A stretch of 62,891 nt of DNA, filler included, from Folioceros fuciformis (Eukaryota): assembly GCA_049999805.1 (NCBI GenBank). It is 10 parts of 10 records of this genome, joined end to end, with 100 filler letters (N's around TTAATTAATTAA, not from the genome) between each part and the next. Parts side by side here need not be neighbours in the genome. Positions count along the whole stretch, not along the records: positions 44,524 to 55,723 come from JBNGIO010000893.1; 9 more parts are not named here. One strand, given 5' to 3'. The position numbers and the translations under genes are program-made. Positions 49,700 through 58,600 of the stretch are shown here, one piece after another (the stretch's first letter is position 1; every line of letters starts with the position of its first letter). Under the pieces are notes generated by a model that was not told where the DNA came from, did no database searches, and saw only the letters and a program-made list of their open reading frames with translations.

Positions 49700-52465
49700 T
49701 TACTGCAGGTGACTGGCCTCGACGAAAACACACAGCAGCACTCGGATTTTCGAGATGTAGACCGTGGCAGCATTACCATCTACGCAAACACGCAGATTTC
49801 TCACCATAAGTCGTGAGTTGGATTGGGTTCTATTGTGGGGACCATGGGCATGGGCAATAGCAAGCTTCTTGTTCTGCTCAGACAGCGAGCTGAGTTTATT
49901 TGAAACAAATTCTGTGTTCATTCTGGAAAGAAGATGTTGCAGTCTTGCTTCGCTCCTGGGATGCTTCTTTTCTCCAACCGAAAAGGTATGCACCAGTCCG
50001 TACATGTCAGCCCACCAGCTCTGGCCTGGCTCCTTCCAGGCCTTGATACTCATTCTCCTCGCCTGCATCTCTTGTGCCTGCTCCCCCATCTGCGCGCCTC
50101 TATATATGTTGGACATCAACACATATGGTGCAGGATCTTGACTGTCTATGTTGACTGCACCATGAAAAGCAGAGCGACCCACCTCCACATTGCTCCACTT
50201 TTGACAAGCACCCAATAGGGTGTGCCAAACTGCAGCATCTGGCAGTGCAGGCATTGTCCTCGCCAACACAAGTGCCTCATCCAGTAGGCCTGCACGGCCC
50301 AGGAGATCGACCATGCATGTGTAGTGCTCGACAGTAGGACTGATGCCATACTCTTTGCGCATGGTTTCAAAGTACTCTTGCCCCTTGGTCACCAGACCAG
50401 TATGACTGCAGACAGTTAAAACACTGAGGAATGTGGCACCGGTGGGCTGAACGCCATCCTCTCTCATCTTGTCAAACAAGTGAAAGACCACATCACTCCC
50501 TCCTTGTCGCATGTAGCCTGCCATCAATGCATTCCAGGAGACCACGTCTCGTTCCGACAGAGTCTCAAATACCTGCTGCGCATCCACCATGCTCCCGCAT
50601 TTTCCGTACATGTTTATCAACCCACCAGCTACAAGCACATCGGCTTCAAGTCCCTGATCGTTTATCTGGGCATGAAGCTGCCTTCCGAGATGCAACGCTG
50701 CCAAATCTGCACATGACTGCAGGAGACACAAAAACGTCACAGAATCAGGTGCAGCAAGGCCTTCTTGATGCATAGCCCTGTAAAGACCAAGAGCTTCGTG
50801 CCCCATGCCCTGCTGGCAGTATCCTGCAATCATGGCATTCCATGTCACGACGTTTTTCTGACTGAGCTCGTCAAACACGTCGCGGGCATCCTCTAGGCTG
50901 CCACACTTCGCATACATGTTCACCAAGCTGCTGGCTAAAACCACTTTGGTTTGAAGTCCTCGTTCTCTAATCTGTGCATCAAGCTGCCTTCCCTTCTCCA
51001 AAGCCTCGGGGCCCACAGCTGCACAAGCCTGCAGGAGGCATACAAACGTCAGGGAATCAAGTGCAAGACTTCCCTCGTCGTTCATGGCCGCGTAGAGACT
51101 GAGGGCTTGCTCCCCCATTCCCAGCTGGGTATACCCTGCTATCATGGCATTCCATGTCACAACGTTTTTTTGATCAAGTTGGTCAAAAACAACCTTCGCA
51201 TCCTCTAACCTTCCGCATTTTGCATACATATTCACCAAGCTATTGGCTACCACTACATCATCAGCAAGACCTCGTTCTCTTATTTGTGCATGAAGCTGCT
51301 TCCCCTTCTCCAAAGCTTGGGTGCCCAGAGTTGCACATGCCTGCAGGAGAGACACAAACGTCGCACACGTTGGCGCACCCGTATGGTCTTGTTGCATGAC
51401 ACTGAACAGATGAAGGGTCTCCAGCCCCATGCCTTTCTGAGAATATCCTGCCATCATGGTATTCCACGTCACCACATCTTTCTGAGGAAGTCTGTCAAAC
51501 AGCCGCTGAGCATCTTCCAAGCTGCCACACTTTGCATACATGTTAACCAGACTGTTGGCTACAAACACGTTGTCTTCAAGTCCCCGTTCCCTAATTTGTG
51601 CATGTAGCTCCTCCCCATTCTCCAAACCCAGGGCTCCCTCACTAGCACATGCTTGGAGGAGACCCACAAATGTCACAGAATTGGGTGCAACAATACCTTC
51701 CTCTTCCATCTCCCTATAAAGACCAAGGGCTTCTTGACCCATGCCCTGCTGGGAGTATCCTGCTATCATGGCACTCCATATCACGACATCTTTCTGAGGA
51801 AGCCCGTCAAACACTCTTACAGCGTCTTCCAAGCGCCCACAATTTGCATACAAATCCACCAAACAACTAGAGACAAACTTATCCCCTTCAAGCCCACTGG
51901 CCAACACATGCGCATGCACTTGTTGCCCAGAATTGAAGTCAGCTTCACCCGCACAAGCCTGCAGGGCCGCTACAAATACGTGACCATCTGGCTTCACACC
52001 TGACCCTTGCATCCTGTCGTACATCCGTATGGCCTCCTTGCCTTCTCCAAGATTAACATGCGCAGACATTATGGAAGACCACATGAAGGCATCTGGCTTT
52101 GGAACGGCGGTAAACACAGCCTTGGCTTCCTGCAACCTGCCATGAGAAGCATACATCCGCAGGATGTGATTGCACAGGAACGTGTGCACCTCGAACTCCG
52201 TCTTCACCGAGAGAGCATGGACCCGGCGACCCAGAGCCAGATCCCTCTTCACTATACATGTCTTCAGGACAGTATAGAAGACACCGTTGGAAACACAACT
52301 ATTTGTCTGCACCAAAATTCCAAGAGCCTCCACAGCCTCGCTAACCCGGCCCTGTTCACATAGCTTGCTCACTTGTTCAGACGTTAAGCCCATTTCGTAA
52401 CCTGCAGGCATGCACGGGCGACCATCACCCATGAAGCGGCAGACAGGATGATGACCCTTCTGCAT
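49700..52465 (-). CDS. PLS-class PPR protein with E1/E2 and a degenerate DYW (WW-type) domain
   Basis: About 20 P/L/S motifs, EHYTCMVDLLGRAG, KEPGQSWW, and degenerate QNKKLA / RNLRVCVDGN. The frame is open upstream to about 52624, so the true start is uncertain. Confidence 0.92.
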   Translation of the reverse strand: MQKGHHPVCRFMGDGRPCMPAGYEMGLTSEQVSKLCEQGRVSEAVEALGILVQTNSCVSNGVFYTVLKTCIVKRDLALGRRVHALSVKTEFEVHTFLCNHILRMYASHGRLQEAKAVFTAVPKPDAFMWSSIMSAHVNLGEGKEAIRMYDRMQGSGVKPDGHVFVAALQACAGEADFNSGQQVHAHVLASGLEGDKFVSSCLVDLYANCGRLEDAVRVFDGLPQKDVVIWSAMIAGYSQQGMGQEALGLYREMEEEGIVAPNSVTFVGLLQACASEGALGLENGEELHAQIRERGLEDNVFVANSLVNMYAKCGSLEDAQRLFDRLPQKDVVTWNTMMAGYSQKGMGLETLHLFSVMQQDHTGAPTCATFVSLLQACATLGTQALEKGKQLHAQIRERGLADDVVVANSLVNMYAKCGRLEDAKVVFDQLDQKNVVTWNAMIAGYTQLGMGEQALSLYAAMNDEGSLALDSLTFVCLLQACAAVGPEALEKGRQLDAQIRERGLQTKVVLASSLVNMYAKCGSLEDARDVFDELSQKNVVTWNAMIAGYCQQGMGHEALGLYRAMHQEGLAAPDSVTFLCLLQSCADLAALHLGRQLHAQINDQGLEADVLVAGGLINMYGKCGSMVDAQQVFETLSERDVVSWNALMAGYMRQGGSDVVFHLFDKMREDGVQPTGATFLSVLTVCSHTGLVTKGQEYFETMRKEYGISPTVEHYTCMVDLLGRAGLLDEALVLARTMPALPDAAVWHTLLGACQKWSNVEVGRSAFHGAVNIDSQDPAPYVLMSNIYRGAQMGEQAQEMQARRMSIKAWKEPGQSWWADMYGLVHTFSVGEKKHPRSEARLQHLLSRMNTEFVSNKLSSLSEQNKKLAIAHAHGPHNRTQSNSRLMVRNLRVCVDGNAATVYISKIRVLLCVFVEASHLQ

Positions 52466-52874
52466 ATCCAGGGCACACAAATGCGCATCCTGAGCTCGTT
52501 TGTCAAACTGGTCTAGCCACAGGGCCTCCCAGCACTTCCAAAGGGAAGTTCCTGGATGCGCTCGCCGGGAGATCCGTCGCCAGCCACAGGCCCTCTTGGA
52601 TGCTCTGCCTGTCTTGCACAGGGGCTGTCAGTTGCCAACGGTTGGTTCCAGGAAGTCAGGTCAACGGGAGATACCCCCACAATGCCTAAGACAGCTCCAA
52701 CTCGAAGGAGCAGAGCGGCCCCTTGTGTTCGATGTACGACCCAAAAATATCTGAGGCTTCGGTTTCCATCGTCTTCAGACATTTGAAAAACGTGTGTGAA
52801 CACAATATCCTCTTCGATGAGGAAAGTCGAAGTGCTCTCCATCCTGATCGAAGGAGTGTCACACAGTGGGATCG

Positions 52875-55319
52875 ATGGAAGCTTCTCCATTTCGTGTGAC
52901 TAGTTCCTTCCTGTTGTTCTGGGCACCCGATCAGCAATGCGTCTCCAAATGCGCATGGAGAGCACCTGCAACAGATTCCGCCCGAACATTTTTCTGGGTG
53001 GCCTGCCACGCTCACTTCTCGCAACGCGATGGATTAGACGCCGCTCGGAAGATGGAAGTTCGAAGGTCATTGTCGTACGCGAGCTTACGCACTTCGGAGG
53101 ATGTGTCTGGGAAGGTAGGATCGACTTGAATGGATCGTTCAGTTGATGGTTGTTGTGTGGTTGGCAGTGCTCAGCTGTGAACGGGTGCTGCCTCTGCAGA
53201 GCAAGCGGAAGTCTTTTCAATTCGGAGAAGGAGTTGCCTCAAACGGTTTAGAGAGGGCAAGCTGCCTATCCAAGGTACCGTCTGTGGAGCTAGGTGAGAA
53301 ACTAGCAATGTTTGACCGCGAACCTCTGCCCTGTTGCGCTTGTGTTACCTGCTCAGGTGACGGATTTTTTCGCAGATGTAGGAGGACTCGTGAAGAGGGA
53401 GCGGCTGAAGCTGCTGTGGCAGGAGTTCTTTGAAGGCCCTGAACAATGGGTGGACAACAGACGGATTAAGGTATTTCAGACCGGCATTTGCAGGCAAATC
53501 CAGCGATTCACCAATTCGTGGAGAGCATAAGCTGGCTCATGATTTCAAGCTCATGTGCAGGCTGTTGAAAACCTGTATTGGTAGCTTTGCAGAAGAGTCC
53601 TCAGCATCCTGACTTCAAGCACAAGAGGAAGCCTCAGGCACTATGGATAGACAACAAGTTCAATCCCCGTTGGATAAAAACGAAGCTAGCCGTTCTGGCT
53701 AAGGAGGAGGATGACGTTGTGCTCAGTCCAGGCCTCGTTTGTATGGTGCCAAGCAGGGTAACGATGAGGTACGAAAGCTGTGTGTCCTGTAACTATGGCT
53801 GTGTTGGAAGAGGGGCAAGCTGTGAGTGATTGGAACATCCGATGACGAACTCTGAGGCCTCATCTGTGCTTTTCAAACTGCTTATCACTCCTGCAGAACC
53901 GATGTGAATTTGGAGGATGCTGAAGAAGTTCGTCGACTCTGCGAAGAGGGGAGACTTCAGGAGGCTCTGTATGATATTGAGGTTATCAATCTGCAAGGAA
54001 GCGTCAATGCTGCTATGGAGAAGTACTGGCACCTTCTGCAGGGTTGCACCAAAATGAAGAGTCTAGTTCACGTGTCAATTGTGCATTCTTCCATAGACGA
54101 GGCAGGTTTCGGCTCGTCCCGGTATCTGGGTAATGCTCTAGTAAATAGCTACGCTCAATGTGGAAGCCTGGCTGAGGCACTTTCGGTGTTCAACAAGCTG
54201 TCGCAACGAACGGTCATATCCTGGACCGCACTTATCTCAGGACACGCAAAGAGTGGAGAAGGCCTTCTAGCCGTGGAACTTTACCGAACGATGCAACGGG
54301 AAGGTGTGAAGCCAAACTCGTACACCTTCGTTGCTATTTTACAAGCTTGTGCCAGGACAGGAGACCTGGAGCACGGCAAGCGGGTCCATGCTGAAGCCGT
54401 CTGCGATGGGCTGGAATCCGATCTGTTTGTCGGTACTGCACTGGTGGACATGTATGTCAAGTGTGGAAGCATGGCAGATGCCCAGGGAGTTTTTGACAGA
54501 ATGGCACGGCATGATGTGGTCTCCTGGACGGCCATGATAACAGGCTACTCCCAGGAAGACCAGGGTGACAAGGCTTTGCAACTCTATGCCCAGATGCAAG
54601 AGGAAGGCCTGATCCCGGATGCTTTTGTCTTTGCAAGTGTTCTCAGAGCCTGCAGCAGCCTCGCAGTGAGGGAGGAAGCAACACTTATAGAGGGCAAGTC
54701 ACTGAAGTTCACATCCTTACAAAAAGGTAGGGATATTCACGCCGAGGTTGTCCGGATGGGGCATGAATCCGATCCTATTGTGGGGACCAGCATGATTGAC
54801 ATGTACTCGAAGTGTGGGAGCATGGTGGAAGCCCAAAGAGCGTTCGATGCGTCATCCAAGACCCACGTGGGGCTCTGGAATGCTCTCATCAGAGGGTACA
54901 CTGAACGGGACCAGTGCCTGGTCGTTTTGCAGCTTCACTCTCAGATGCGATCGGCAGGGGTCAAGCCAGACGGTTGGACTTTTCCCAGCTTACTCCGAGC
55001 ATGTATCAGCCTGTTAGAAAGTGAAGACTCCATCGCTCATGGATCGGTCTTACCAGATCCCCGGCAGGCAGGCCAGGAAATCCATGCCGAAATCATCAGG
55101 GAAGGCTACGAGTCAGACATCGTGGTTGGCAACGCCCTGGTGCAAATGTATGCGAAATGCGGGAACATGGTAGATGCTCAACTAGTTTTTGATTCATTGT
55201 CCCAGCCTGATCCGCTGTCGTGGAAAGCAATGGCAGCAGGGTATGCCCAGCAAGGGCAGATTGAAAAGGCTCAGCCCTTCAACACTGGACCGGAAGCTGA
55301 AGGAACCGGCCAGGTCTAG
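52875..55319 (+). CDS. PLS-PPR protein with N-terminal OSB-type PDF motif; no E/DYW domain
   Basis: Exons at about 53376-53470 (LWQEFFEGPEQWVDNRRIK) and 53593-53768 (KSPQHPDFKHKRKPQALWIDNKFNPRW) splice in frame to 53897-55319 (about 11-12 PLS motifs). The start exon is uncertain (ATG 52875, 52937 or 53052). Confidence 0.8.
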
Positions 55320-55448
55320 GTCGATAGACATACACTGTCAGTAGACATCCATGGCTGCCAGCATCTGAACGTTGATGTTTCTGTGCAGCAGACATCCCTG
55401 GCTGAGGGCAACATCGATGTTTCTGTGCAATCATACGAGCCAATCTTA

Positions 55449-55610
55449 CCTGAGGAATGTCTAGGTTAAATTAGACACTAAAAAAGATATAATCTCATAT
55501 TTTTTATAATTGAAAAAGAAATGAAAAGTCCCTGAGAATGTCTAAGTTAAATTAGACATTAAAAAAGATATGATCTCATATTTTTTATAATTAAAAAAGA
55601 GATAGAAAGT
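55449..55610. repeat. Two-copy tandem duplication, about 81-bp AT-rich unit
   Basis: cctgag(g)aatgtcta(g/a)gttaaattagaca..aaaaaagatat(a/g)atctcatatttttt twice. Confidence 0.75.
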
Positions 55611-58600
55611 TGGGAACTCCAAAGATGGGAGGAACAAAACAATTAGATATACTCTACCTGCAAATATTATTTTCAAAAACTACCCCATTAGAGCCAAAAG
55701 CAAAAAAAATGTACGCTTTCATGNNNNNNNNNNNNNNNNNNNNNNNNNNNNNNNNNNNNNNNNNNNNTTAATTAATTAANNNNNNNNNNNNNNNNNNNNN
55801 NNNNNNNNNNNNNNNNNNNNNNNGGGTTGAGAAGAGCGTGAAAATGGAGGGGGAAGGGGGAATTGGGCAAGCATTGGAGAAGTGTTGCAGATAGATGTTG
55901 GATTTCTCCCTGTCGTTTCTGATATGTATTGAAAGGTAGGGATTAGGGGGTTTGGATTGCTTGGAAGGCGTCGAGTATTGGGGTTTCGGCGTTTGGGGTT
56001 ATGCAGGAATATGTGGTAGGGAAGGCGCCGTAAGGGAAATGCCGTGAGGAACATGCCGTGATGGATTTGATATTCGTAGAAGAGCCGATCGTGATGTTAC
56101 TTTCATGATTCTAGGGACTTATGCACGGGATTGTCCAATTGTCATTCTCTTAGTCGCTATGATAATGCGGCTTCGAGTGGCATATGGAAGTCATCTTAGA
56201 GCTCCTTATCGGTTCTTGAAGATGGTATTTCTGAGTAGATATTGAGTAGATGTTACATCCATTTTTCAAGGTGCCGAGTATAATTCCTCCATTGAGTTTG
56301 GTTTCACATGATTCCCCGCTGCTTGGCCTATGGAGGTGCATTTCTCAGACTGCCGACCTTGCCCGGTAGATGAAATGGATTGTGTTCCAGATCCCAAGTT
56401 CATCACACGACGCACCGGTACTTCTGTCGTCCACGCTTTGGAAAGATCCGAACCTACACACTTCAACTATGCCCTGACCTACTCCTCCTTTGAAATCCCT
56501 CACAGCCCAATGATTCCCCTGTAAATAGAAGTGGTCTACCCGCAGTTCGGTACTGTTAAGCGATATCTGCTGGGAGAACCGTTAAGGGTGTGGTTGACCT
56601 TGGATGGGAAGGTGCCTGAGGCAATCGGCGATTTACGGGTTCATGTCGGTGGTGATGTGGAAGAATGCTATTGGCCAGATTAGATGAATGTGGCGGTGTA
56701 TTAACGGAAAAGTCGAATAGGACCGAGCATGCTCGGTGAAATTCTTTTATACTTGAATGGAGAAGCAGTTGAATTTAAGGTTTCTATCATTCGCAAAGCT
56801 GTCCTTGGTAAGACTATATATACGAGATACGCCTGGTAGCCTATATGTATGGTAACGGATAGCATGGGGGTTAGTTTGTTATATGGTAATGTGGTCCAGA
56901 CCCGCCGTGCATCTATCTCATCGTCATTCGTTCGAAGTGTATCTAGGTTTACAAAGGCCCTATTGTTACATCGAGCGATGACGTATTAGAAATCATTTTG
57001 CATGCTCTCTGCTAGGATCCGCTCTGTGCTTTCCTCTGGCTATCTCATGTTTGGATTTCGCAAGGACTTTCTTTGAGCGGATGGTCTTGTCGAGCGACAG
57101 AAGGTTGCAGTTGGAGCGTTTCGTGGGGGTTTGAAGTGCCAAGCCATCGTAGGGAGAGCTTAACTGCCGATAAGCTAGAGCAATTACTAGTACCGTGTGG
57201 CTGAGCTTGGAATAGAAGCCAAATGCGCCGTGATGATTCATCAAGTGAGCGCCCGAGTTACTACATTTCTACTGCTAAATTGACTCCGGATTCCGTTGGC
57301 TTTCCGTAATTAGTGCTCTACTTAGTGCTTCTTAGCGCGTCTAGAGTAGGGGCGTAACTAGATATACTTCCTACATCAAGATCCCCGCAGCACATGTCAA
57401 TCCAGGGAGATCCAGATGCATCTGACCCTTCCATGCTGTGGCAAGCCAAGTGCCTGACACGCTGCGTCGTGGCGACGAAAAACTCGACCTGACTTGAATT
57501 TGCTAATGGTTGTAGTACAGGTGTGGACCCGGACTCGGCACAACTTCCTAACCACCACAACGTGAAGCAGCGGAGTGAGTCCGATCTCTTTCAACGGTCA
57601 GCACACCCAATCCTTTGTCGCAATGTCGGAGTACAGTCCGGCTTGACGTGTTATATTTGCCCACCGCTTATTGAAATTGCCTGGTCTCCTGATCAATGCG
57701 CAGCTTCGTCTGTGGATGCATGCATGCACATGGTACTCGTGCAGTCATGCTGTCTACGTTGGACATGTCTGGTGTGCGCAAAGGACACAACGAGACCAGA
57801 CGCCCGCGGAGATGCCGAGGTCAGCCGCTGCCCGTGGACCACCGCATCTGCAACTGGGAGTGCCACTGCGGGACGTCGACGGAGACGCAGCTTTCTTTGT
57901 TGGATAGAATTGTTCGCTGATGGTGAAACTTCGGTAGCGACGTTAGTAACCTCAGCGCCCCTCGTTGGACTTGTCCTGTTTCGGGCCAAGTTGTAGATCA
58001 ACTGCTACACGTGCGTTCCCGTCCCTGCGGCCCTGGCCCTCCAATGCGGCGCGACGACTGTTTGACGTCTGCAGTGGCTGCTTGCTAGCTACCACTTGCA
58101 GCGAGACGGACCTGGAGCCGGGCGGTCATCTGCTCGCCGTCCCGTTGGAGCCAGGTCGCTTCGAGAGACAGCTAACGTACGCGAGACAAGGCTTATGGCG
58201 TACGTCGTCAAAGACGTGCTTCGTACGGCGATATTGACCGATGTGCAGAATGGGATTTCGCCATCGGAGAAACAAGGGAGTAATTTTTTTTTTCCATCCT
58301 CCCAGTACCAGCATTCGCTTTTGACAGAGGATGAGTAGGGCCGACTGAAGTTTCGGGGGGAACCTTCGCCTACAGTGCCGATCGCCGTCCAGCGCCGATC
58401 AATCACATCGAACCCAAGTTTGTTGCGGTTTCTAAACTGGATTTCACGTCGTGCCATCATAACTTAGCCGTAATCTGGAAAACGCCGTAAAGGATTTCGA
58501 TCCTGGCTTAGCTTTCGACGACTTCTATTCCATTGTTTCTCGAAGGTCGTTAGAAACACGCTATGCCGATTCATGCGGCTGGGCGTTTCGCGGTTGATGT

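What the first reader, a model, noticed from the sequence alone, without database searches (positions are those of the whole stretch)
52875..55319. PPR array fused to an OSB-type PDF ssDNA-binding motif
Seen: two small exons splice in frame to give LWQEFFEGPEQWVDNRRIK-KSPQHPDFKHKRKPQALWID..PRW directly before a PLS-PPR tract, which ends with no E or DYW domain. Known: W..FF..P..W.DNR..K...PDFKHK...ALW is the PDF motif of organellar ssDNA-binding OSB proteins, which control organellar recombination, whereas PLS-PPRs read specific RNA sequences. Inference: this could be a bifunctional ssDNA/RNA reader that couples transcripts to nucleoid DNA (R-loops, co-transcriptional editing or recombination control). 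I recall similar unannotated fusions in fern proteomes but no functional description. The ORF track hides the fusion because an intron splits the motif.
Basis: partly seen in the sequence, partly recalled or inferred. Interest (0 to 1): 0.8.

Follow-up and report, generated by a model that had tools for sequence, protein, structure and literature searches.

The report
OSB-type PDF motif fused to PPR
This is a real, spliced plant gene whose protein joins the small DNA-binding "PDF" motif of organellar OSB proteins to an RNA-reading PPR array, and the same fusion, which we did not find described in print, occurs in mosses, a liverwort, a lycophyte and ferns.

Summary
One spliced contig of a public run matches window 52744-55504 without a mismatch. 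The five-exon ORF encodes 675 aa: an N-terminal leader, one PDF motif split by a phase-0 intron, then a PLS-type PPR array that stops inside a P motif with no E or DYW domain.

An HMM built only from OSB-like proteins scores the spliced protein at 69.2 bits. The two exon peptides align end to end with a protein named osb1.

The fusion is not unique to this window. PDF motifs lie N-terminal to PPR arrays in 8 of 120 PPR homologues and 14 of 150 top PDF hits, from Sphagnum, Calypogeia, Diphasiastrum, Adiantum and Pteridium. The PDF is the most conserved part of these proteins. Three relatives carry intact DYW deaminases.

The library searches found no description of the fusion.

The function is inferred. 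Most likely the PDF is a non-specific single-strand-binding helper on an organellar RNA-targeting PPR.

The parts
52744..52874 (+). 5' untranslated region, starting where the transcript contig starts. It holds a short upstream ORF (ATG 52817, stop ends 52903) that overlaps the main ATG.
   Evidence: record 2 starts at 52744; ORF 52787..52903.
52875..53114 (+). Coding exon 1 (aa 1-80): N-terminal leader, presumed organellar presequence. 52875 is the first in-frame ATG. A second in-frame ATG lies at aa 59.
   Evidence: No Pfam family. Targeting was not tested.
53115..53199 (+). Intron 1, GT..AG, 85 nt.
   Evidence: table 5.
53200..53293 (+). Coding exon 2 (aa 81-111 plus the first base of codon 112).
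53294..53375 (+). Intron 2, GT..AG, 82 nt.
   Evidence: table 5.
53376..53470 (+). Coding exon 3. The first half of the PDF motif (LWQEFFEGPEQWVDNRRIK) is encoded at 53414-53470.
   Evidence: 23.7 bits to the OSB-only HMM; aligns to residues 239-257 of an osb1-named protein, E 3e-07.
53471..53592 (+). Intron 3, GT..AG, 122 nt, phase 0. It splits the PDF motif.
   Evidence: table 5.
53593..53768 (+). Coding exon 4. The second half of the PDF motif (KSPQHPDFKHK...ALWIDNKFNPRWIKTKL) is encoded at 53593-53688, followed by a linker.
   Evidence: 41.6 bits; aligns to residues 258-292 of the osb1-named protein, E 1e-14.
53769..53896 (+). Intron 4, GT..AG, 128 nt.
   Evidence: table 5.
53897..55319 (+). 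Coding exon 5: PLS-type PPR array with motif order (P)-L-S-P-L-S-P-L-S-P-L-S-P. The S motifs are 31 aa, the P motifs 35 aa and the L motifs 35, 51 and 49 aa. The last P motif breaks off after ...QQGQIEKA. Stop codon TAG at 55317-55319. No E or DYW.
   Evidence: PPR_2 4.4e-50, PPR 2.3e-47; segmentation; position 5/last pairs N/T, T/N, T/D, T/D, T/H, N/D, N/D.
55320..55504 (+). 3' untranslated region, up to the end of the transcript contig.
   Evidence: record 2 ends at 55504.

Best explanation
Window 52744-55504 (+) is an expressed five-exon nuclear gene for a 675-aa protein. The protein has an N-terminal leader, one OSB-type PDF motif (aa 125-175), a linker of about 30 aa, and a PLS-type PPR array of about 13 motifs that ends without E or DYW.

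It belongs to a conserved 'PDF-PPR' architecture found in mosses, a liverwort, a lycophyte and ferns. In that architecture 1-3 PDF motifs always precede the PPR array.

Most likely mechanism (inferred, not shown):
- The protein is imported into an organelle.
- The PPR array reads a specific single-stranded RNA.
- The PDF mini-domain sits on a flexible tether at the end of the array that faces the 5' side of the RNA. There it adds sequence-independent single-strand binding, which raises affinity or keeps the upstream RNA unfolded.

This copy lacks a deaminase. It would act as a binder (stabiliser, processing factor or specificity factor for a deaminase supplied in trans) rather than as an editing enzyme.

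The mixed gene structure, four introns in the N-terminal part and one 1.4-kb exon for the whole PPR array, suggests that PDF-coding exons were joined to an intronless PPR unit.
For: Shown by tool results:
- Splicing and transcript. Intact ORF.
- PDF identity: 69.2 bits to an HMM built from 273 motifs of 89 OSB-like proteins.
- A profile of PPR-linked motifs finds 1192 proteins at E<=1e-3. The top ones have 2-13 C-terminal copies.
- 27 of those 89 OSB-like proteins match Pfam SSB.
- One hit shares a 90% cluster with 'protein osb1 mitochondrial'. The two exon peptides align contiguously to that protein.
- The window keeps all 12 informative columns that are >=90% conserved over 359 motif instances.
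- Family: 8 of 120 PPR homologues and 14 of 150 top PDF hits have PDF N-terminal to PPR.
- All 12 invariant columns of the 23-row fusion alignment lie in the PDF.
- 16 of 23 have an E motif. 3 of 23 have DYW with HxE and CxxCH.
- AF2 models give the same helix / short strands / helix unit at pLDDT about 87-94 in a fusion and in an OSB-like fragment. In the fusion a linker of pLDDT <50 precedes the PPRs.
- The PPR code pairs are of the usual RNA-reading kinds.

From papers (passages read):
- The PDF motif of AtOSB1 suffices for ssDNA binding (PMC6963530).
- N-terminal PPRs contribute weakly to selectivity (PMC10482289).
- PPR expansion is linked to retroposition (PMC13386178).

The parallel PPR-RNA orientation is established knowledge recalled from memory, not tested here.
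Against: - No binding, localisation or target was tested.
- A review states that AtOSB1 and AtOSB2 prefer ssDNA over dsDNA or RNA (PMC4166229). This favours a DNA-side role for the PDF.
- This copy is truncated inside its last P motif, has an unrelated 12-residue tail, and sits beside tandem repeats and a contig joint. It may therefore be decaying.
- No close orthologue was found (best PPR identity about 40%), so purifying selection on this gene itself was not measured.
- The run is only guessed to be RNA.
- Only the best 150 of 1192 profile hits were seen.
- The 23 fusion rows include isoforms and near-identical paralogues of the same loci.
Confidence: 0.5

Rival explanations
1. The PDF binds single-stranded organellar DNA (displaced strand of R-loops, replication or recombination intermediates) while the PPR array binds a transcript. 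This would tether RNA processing to the nucleoid, or recruit the protein to recombination control.
For: The PDF of AtOSB1 is sufficient for ssDNA binding, and OSBs prefer ssDNA to RNA (passages). The PPR-linked motifs are as similar to OSB motifs (mean identity 0.41) as OSB-like motifs are to each other (0.43). Some fusions carry 2-3 tandem PDFs, as OSBs do.
Against: There is no evidence of DNA association for any PDF-PPR. Relatives with E motifs and intact DYW deaminases point to ordinary RNA-editing-type work. A single PDF with no OB-like domain may bind weakly.
Confidence: 0.2
2. This particular copy is a truncated, decaying paralogue. It is still transcribed and spliced but has no function. 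The family is real but this gene is a remnant.
For: The array stops inside a P motif, followed by an unrelated tail. No PPR continuation is seen in the + strand frames listed downstream of the stop. Tandem 75-nt repeats and an N/TTAATTAATTAA/N joint lie just downstream. An upstream ORF overlaps the start codon. Relatives mostly extend to E motifs (16 of 23).
Against: The 675-codon ORF across five exons is intact. All 12 conserved PDF columns are kept. The PPR code pairs are canonical. A spliced transcript is present. PLS proteins without an E domain are a recognised class (recalled).
Confidence: 0.15
3. In PPR proteins the PDF is a protein-protein or oligomerisation module, for example recruiting OSBs or other factors, and does not contact nucleic acid.
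For: AtOSB2 is a tetramer (passage). The motif is a compact, confidently folded unit on a flexible tether.
Against: The only documented activity of the motif is ssDNA binding. No interaction data exist and none were tested here.
Confidence: 0.1

Closest known systems
[quoted passage not shown]
   Same: They share the PDF motif, with the same conserved W, W-D-R, K, P-D-F, L-W and P-W columns and the same predicted helix/strands/helix unit.
   Different: OSBs have an SSB-like OB fold followed by C-terminal PDF copies. Here there is no OB fold. The single PDF is N-terminal and is followed by a PPR array.
PLS-class PPR proteins (RNA-editing-type lineage: PLS, PLS-E, PLS-E-DYW)
   Same: Alternating P, L and S motifs with usual code residues. 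The best homologues are PLS proteins of lycophytes, ferns, mosses and gymnosperms. Relatives with the same N-terminal PDF carry E motifs and DYW deaminases.
   Different: This protein has no E or DYW, and its array is cut inside a P motif. It carries an N-terminal PDF motif, which the PPR/editing-factor papers consulted do not mention.
PPR proteins with an added nucleic-acid-binding domain, e.g. maize PPR4 (N-terminal RRM + PPR)
   Same: The logic is the same: a general RNA/ssNA-binding module placed N-terminal to a sequence-specific PPR tract (PPR4 is described in a passage of PMC9459714; RRM-PPR fusions are counted in PMC13386178).
   Different: The added module here is a PDF motif, not an RRM. 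The array is PLS class, not P class. The known range so far is non-seed land plants.

Membership tests
PDF motif (as defined on OSB proteins) | About 50-aa motif with the conserved Pro-Asp-Phe signature and flanking W/D/R/K/L-W positions. | tested here: met
   69.2 bits and iE 1.1e-23 to an HMM of 273 motifs from 89 OSB-like proteins, covering 3-53 of 54 positions. 12 of 12 informative >=90% conserved columns are kept. Contiguous BLASTP alignment to an osb1-named protein.
PDF motif (as defined on OSB proteins) | Binds single-stranded DNA. | not testable with these tools
   Known only for AtOSB1 from a review passage.
OSB protein family | SSB-like OB-fold domain N-terminal to the PDF motif(s). 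| tested here: not met
   No SSB/OB Pfam hit at E<=10 in the exon 1, exon 3, exon 4 and exon 5 peptides. Exon 2 (31 aa) was not scanned but is too short to hold an OB fold. By contrast, 27 of 89 OSB-like hits match PF00436.
OSB protein family | Mitochondrial and/or plastid targeting. | not tested
   No targeting predictor was available. A leader of about 120 aa precedes the motif.
PLS-class PPR proteins | Tandem PPR motifs. | tested here: met
   PPR_2 4.4e-50, PPR 2.3e-47, PPR_1 7.3e-23, PPR_3 2.8e-22.
PLS-class PPR proteins | Alternation of P (35 aa), L (35-36 aa or longer) and S (31 aa) motifs. | tested here: met
   Anchor-based segmentation gives S31-P35-L35-S31-P35-L51-S31-P35-L49-S31-P. 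Motif classes were assigned with my own anchors, not with a dedicated PPR finder.
PPR RNA-editing enzymes (PLS-E-DYW) | E1/E2 motifs and a DYW deaminase with HxE and CxxCH. | tested here: not met
   No E_motif or DYW_deaminase in the window protein. Present in relatives: E motif in 16 of 23, DYW in 3 of 23.
PDF-PPR architecture (proposed here) | One or more PDF motifs N-terminal to a PPR array in one polypeptide. | tested here: met
   The spliced transcript joins them. The same order is seen in all 8 PDF-bearing of 120 PPR homologues and in all 14 PPR-bearing of 150 PDF hits.

The most novel reading that the evidence does not exclude
PDF-PPR proteins are a distinct class of organellar factors of non-seed land plants. 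They hold a specific transcript with the PPR array and single-stranded DNA with the PDF at the same time. This would make RNA editing or processing co-transcriptional, or place an RNA-guided brake on recombination at R-loops. A variant of this reading: the PDF is the built-in helper that stands in for the MORF-type helpers of seed plants (that MORFs are confined to seed plants is recalled, not checked here).
Probability: 0.15. Interest if true: 0.8.

Novelty: new variant of a known kind. Interest (0 to 1): 0.6.

Why it matters
PPR proteins and OSB proteins are treated as separate worlds: organellar RNA processing on one side and organellar DNA maintenance on the other. A conserved fusion of the OSB ssDNA-binding motif to editing-type PPR arrays, spanning bryophytes to ferns, raises two possibilities:
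- the PDF motif may work on RNA as well as DNA;
- some PPR factors may act at the DNA/RNA interface.

It also gives the PDF motif a second natural context in which to study it, including DYW-bearing members that could be tested in the established bacterial editing assay with and without the PDF.

Because no domain library holds the motif and an intron splits it here, such proteins are annotated only as 'hypothetical' or 'PPR'. Surveys of editing factors and of OSBs have not reported them in the passages read.

Tried and rejected
- Word-index search with the 58-aa exon-4 peptide, lengths 'longer': 4 candidates, none scored.
- Region search with P0060 residues 18-85: returned only itself at E<=0.01. 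Short motifs cannot reach significance against 5.8 billion sequences, so this is no evidence of absence.
- No whole genome is held for this window. Paralogues, orthologues and intron positions in OSB genes could not be examined.
- The look-up of sequencing runs listed no holder on record as RNA. The one holder is 'RNA?' by guess.
- Protein atlas search with the P0093 PDF region: no usable hit.
- Fold searches with the 102-aa PDF model: Foldseek against the PDB gave 0 matches at E<=0.001 (best E 3.3). VIA-align against 48,161 chains gave a best Z of 4.1 and none >=5. No clear solved relative was found, which does not show that the fold is new.
- FastTree of 359 motif instances: PPR linkage changes 9 times, against 20-22 in the 5 shuffles printed of 200 run. 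The clustering is partial only, the alignment is short, and several 'non-PPR' rows are fragments of PDF-PPR genes. Single versus multiple origin is therefore left open.
- The neighbouring PPR gene as a source of the PDF: it has no PDF signal.
- Zaegel et al. 2006 (PMC1785405), the paper that defined the motif, is not held. Whether it mentions PPR-linked motifs is unknown.
- Earlier findings of this scan: three look-ups, nothing returned.

Full report
**1. The observation**

A public run (coded X1) holds 81% of the sampled words of the region.

Laid on window 52600-55700, one 2344-nt contig matches 52744-55504 with 0 mismatches and 0 gaps. It skips four segments, all GT..AG: 53115-53199, 53294-53375, 53471-53592 and 53769-53896.

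The run is only guessed to be RNA. The removal of four canonical introns is what argues that the contig derives from spliced mRNA. A processed DNA copy elsewhere in the genome cannot be strictly excluded.

The gene has five coding exons, not three. Joined in a script, 52875-53114, 53200-53293, 53376-53470, 53593-53768 and 53897-55319 give 2028 nt, in frame, with one terminal stop. That is 675 residues.

**2. The motif is an OSB-type PDF motif**

Pfam has no model for it. The exon peptides hit nothing meaningful.

I first found the same motif at the N-termini of PPR homologues. I aligned six of these with the two window exon peptides (A1) and searched 1.84 billion representatives with the profile:
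- 1192 proteins at E<=1e-3, 493 at E<=1e-10 and 57 at E<=1e-30.
- The best hits carry 2-13 copies, mostly towards the C-terminus of proteins of about 280-530 aa.

The evidence that these are OSBs:
- Among 89 multi-copy hits without PPR, the only recurrent Pfam family is SSB, in 27 of 89 (4 of 10 above the gathering score). SSB-like domain plus C-terminal PDF copies is the OSB architecture described in the literature (passages).
- One hit (P0268, E 5.5e-20) shares a 90% cluster with a record named 'protein osb1 mitochondrial'.

The tests on the window itself:
- An HMM built only from 273 motifs of those 89 proteins scores the spliced protein at 69.2 bits over aa 125-175 (iE 1.1e-23, Z=1, positions 3-53 of 54). 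The best of 1000 shuffles scores 9.1.
- The exon-3 and exon-4 peptides align by BLASTP to residues 239-257 (E 3e-07) and 258-292 (E 1e-14) of the osb1-named protein. They are exactly contiguous across the intron.
- The window keeps all 12 informative columns that are >=90% conserved across 359 motif instances.
- In a six-frame scan of the window, nothing else scores.

**3. The PPR part**

The last exon gives strong PPR hits and neither E_motif nor DYW.

Anchored segmentation shows 31-aa S motifs, 35-aa P motifs and L motifs of 35, 51 and 49 aa, in PLS order. Position-5/last pairs are N/T, T/N, T/D, T/D, T/H, N/D and N/D.

The final P motif breaks off after ...QQGQIEKA and runs into an unrelated tail of 12 residues before the stop. 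The + strand ORFs listed downstream of the stop show nothing PPR-like.

The transcript contig contains the stop and 185 nt beyond it. The truncation is therefore not caused by the N/TTAATTAATTAA/N joint at 55724-55823.

**4. The fusion is a family, not a one-off**

- 8 of the 120 best PPR homologues carry the motif N-terminally.
- 14 of the 150 best PDF-profile hits have PPR repeats downstream of 1-3 N-terminal PDFs. No case has the reverse order.
- Named sources are Diphasiastrum complanatum (several loci), Sphagnum (fallax, jensenii, troendelagicum, tenellum, compactum), Calypogeia fissa, Adiantum capillus-veneris, A. nelumboides and Pteridium aquilinum. All are labelled 'hypothetical', 'unnamed' or 'pentatricopeptide repeat'.
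- None of the named fusions is from a seed plant. Only 150 of 1192 hits were seen, so absence from seed plants is not established.

In a 23-row alignment of fusions, all 12 invariant columns lie inside the PDF and none in the PPR array. The 23 rows include isoforms and near-identical paralogues and represent roughly 18 loci.

PPR-linked motifs are on average 41% identical to non-PPR motifs. Non-PPR motifs are 43% identical among themselves. The two consensus strings agree at the key positions.

16 of 23 fusions have an E motif. 3 of 23 (P0207, P0263, P0288) have complete DYW domains with HxE, CxxCH and a terminal DYW.

**5. Structure**

AF2 models were made of a fusion (P0211, mean pLDDT 86.6) and of an OSB-like fragment (P0247, pLDDT >90 over residues 21-70). 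Both give the same unit: a helix, two to three very short strands at the W-W-D, F-K-H and L-W positions, then a helix.

In the fusion, a segment with pLDDT <50 (residues 82-95) separates this unit from the PPR superhelix. No convincing solved relative was found.

**6. Mechanism**

Shown: the gene is spliced and present in a transcript contig. The motif is a bona fide PDF. The array is PLS-type. The architecture is conserved, with the PDF as its most constrained part. Some members are complete deaminase-bearing PPRs.

Inferred:
- organellar import (not tested);
- RNA as the ligand of the PPR array;
- the PDF acting as a tethered, sequence-independent single-strand binder at the end of the array that faces the 5' side of the RNA (parallel PPR-RNA orientation is recalled knowledge).

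This would supplement the N-terminal repeats, which contribute weakly to selectivity (passage in PMC10482289).

Against this reading, reviews report that OSB1 and OSB2 prefer ssDNA to RNA.

Because this copy lacks E and DYW and is cut within a motif, it may act only as a binder, or it may be decaying.

The gene structure has four introns in the first 0.9 kb and a single 1.4-kb exon for the whole PPR array. This fits the joining of PDF exons to an intronless PPR unit. PPR expansion by retroposition is described in PMC13386178 (passage).

**7. Comparison and novelty**

It is not an OSB, because there is no OB-like domain. It is a PLS-class PPR protein with an added PDF module. In logic it is analogous to RRM-PPR proteins such as PPR4 (passages).

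Literature searches in the held library:
- 'PDF motif' + 'pentatricopeptide': 1 paper, where the two terms co-occur incidentally.
- 'PDF domain' + 'pentatricopeptide': 0 papers.
- 'OSB' + 'DYW': 1 paper, irrelevant.
- 'PDF motif' alone: 5 papers, 3 of them relevant. The OSB/PDF passages read in these three do not mention a PPR fusion.
- The 2026 OSB family survey has 0 occurrences of 'PPR' or 'pentatricopeptide'.
- The 2026 kingdom-wide survey of editing factors has 0 occurrences of 'PDF' or 'OSB', although it catalogues PPR fusions.

Limits: the founding paper (Zaegel 2006) is not held, supplements were closed, and subscription journals are largely missing.

**8. Verdict**

I rate it a new variant of a known kind, with interest 0.6. 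It is a conserved domain architecture that I did not find described in print, and it links two well-studied organellar systems. Clear experiments are available. However, it is already present, unrecognised, in public proteomes, and no function has been demonstrated.

Noticed in passing
window 49700-52627 (-): Head-to-head neighbour: an open frame of 975 codons for a long PLS-type PPR protein with an E motif (2e-08) but no DYW hit at E<=0.001. Its C-terminal region looks to me like a degenerate DYW (by eye, no tool). It is 37% identical to the PDF-PPR array and has no PDF signal. The two genes start about 120-250 bp apart.
   Followed up: partly
window 55724-55823: Two runs of N flank the literal TTAATTAATTAA, which looks like an artificial contig-joining linker. 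Sequence to its right may not be physically adjacent to the gene.
   Followed up: no
window 55455-55610 and 55368-55429: Two tandem 75-nt AT-rich copies (91% identical, 81 nt apart) and a 20-nt pair lie in and just beyond the end of the transcript contig. They may be a small mobile-element remnant next to the truncated 3' end of the gene.
   Followed up: partly
window 52817-52903 (+): An upstream ORF of 28 codons in the 5' leader overlaps the main start codon at 52875. A second in-frame ATG with a better-looking context lies at codon 59 (53049). The true start is therefore uncertain.
   Followed up: no
proteins P0121-P0125: Some proteins carry 9-13 PDF copies (for example P0121, 1160 aa, 13 stretches). 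This is far more than the 'up to five' quoted for OSBs in the 2026 survey. They come from unnamed records.
   Followed up: no
alignment A2: One of the 89 multi-copy PDF proteins also matches a kinesin motor domain (1.8e-86) and a microtubule-binding domain. This is either another unexpected PDF fusion or a gene-model merger.
   Followed up: no
proteins P0135, P0156, P0178, P0219: Some PDF-PPR proteins have two or three tandem N-terminal PDF motifs before arrays of up to about 1000 aa. The fused module has thus been duplicated, as it has in OSBs.
   Followed up: partly
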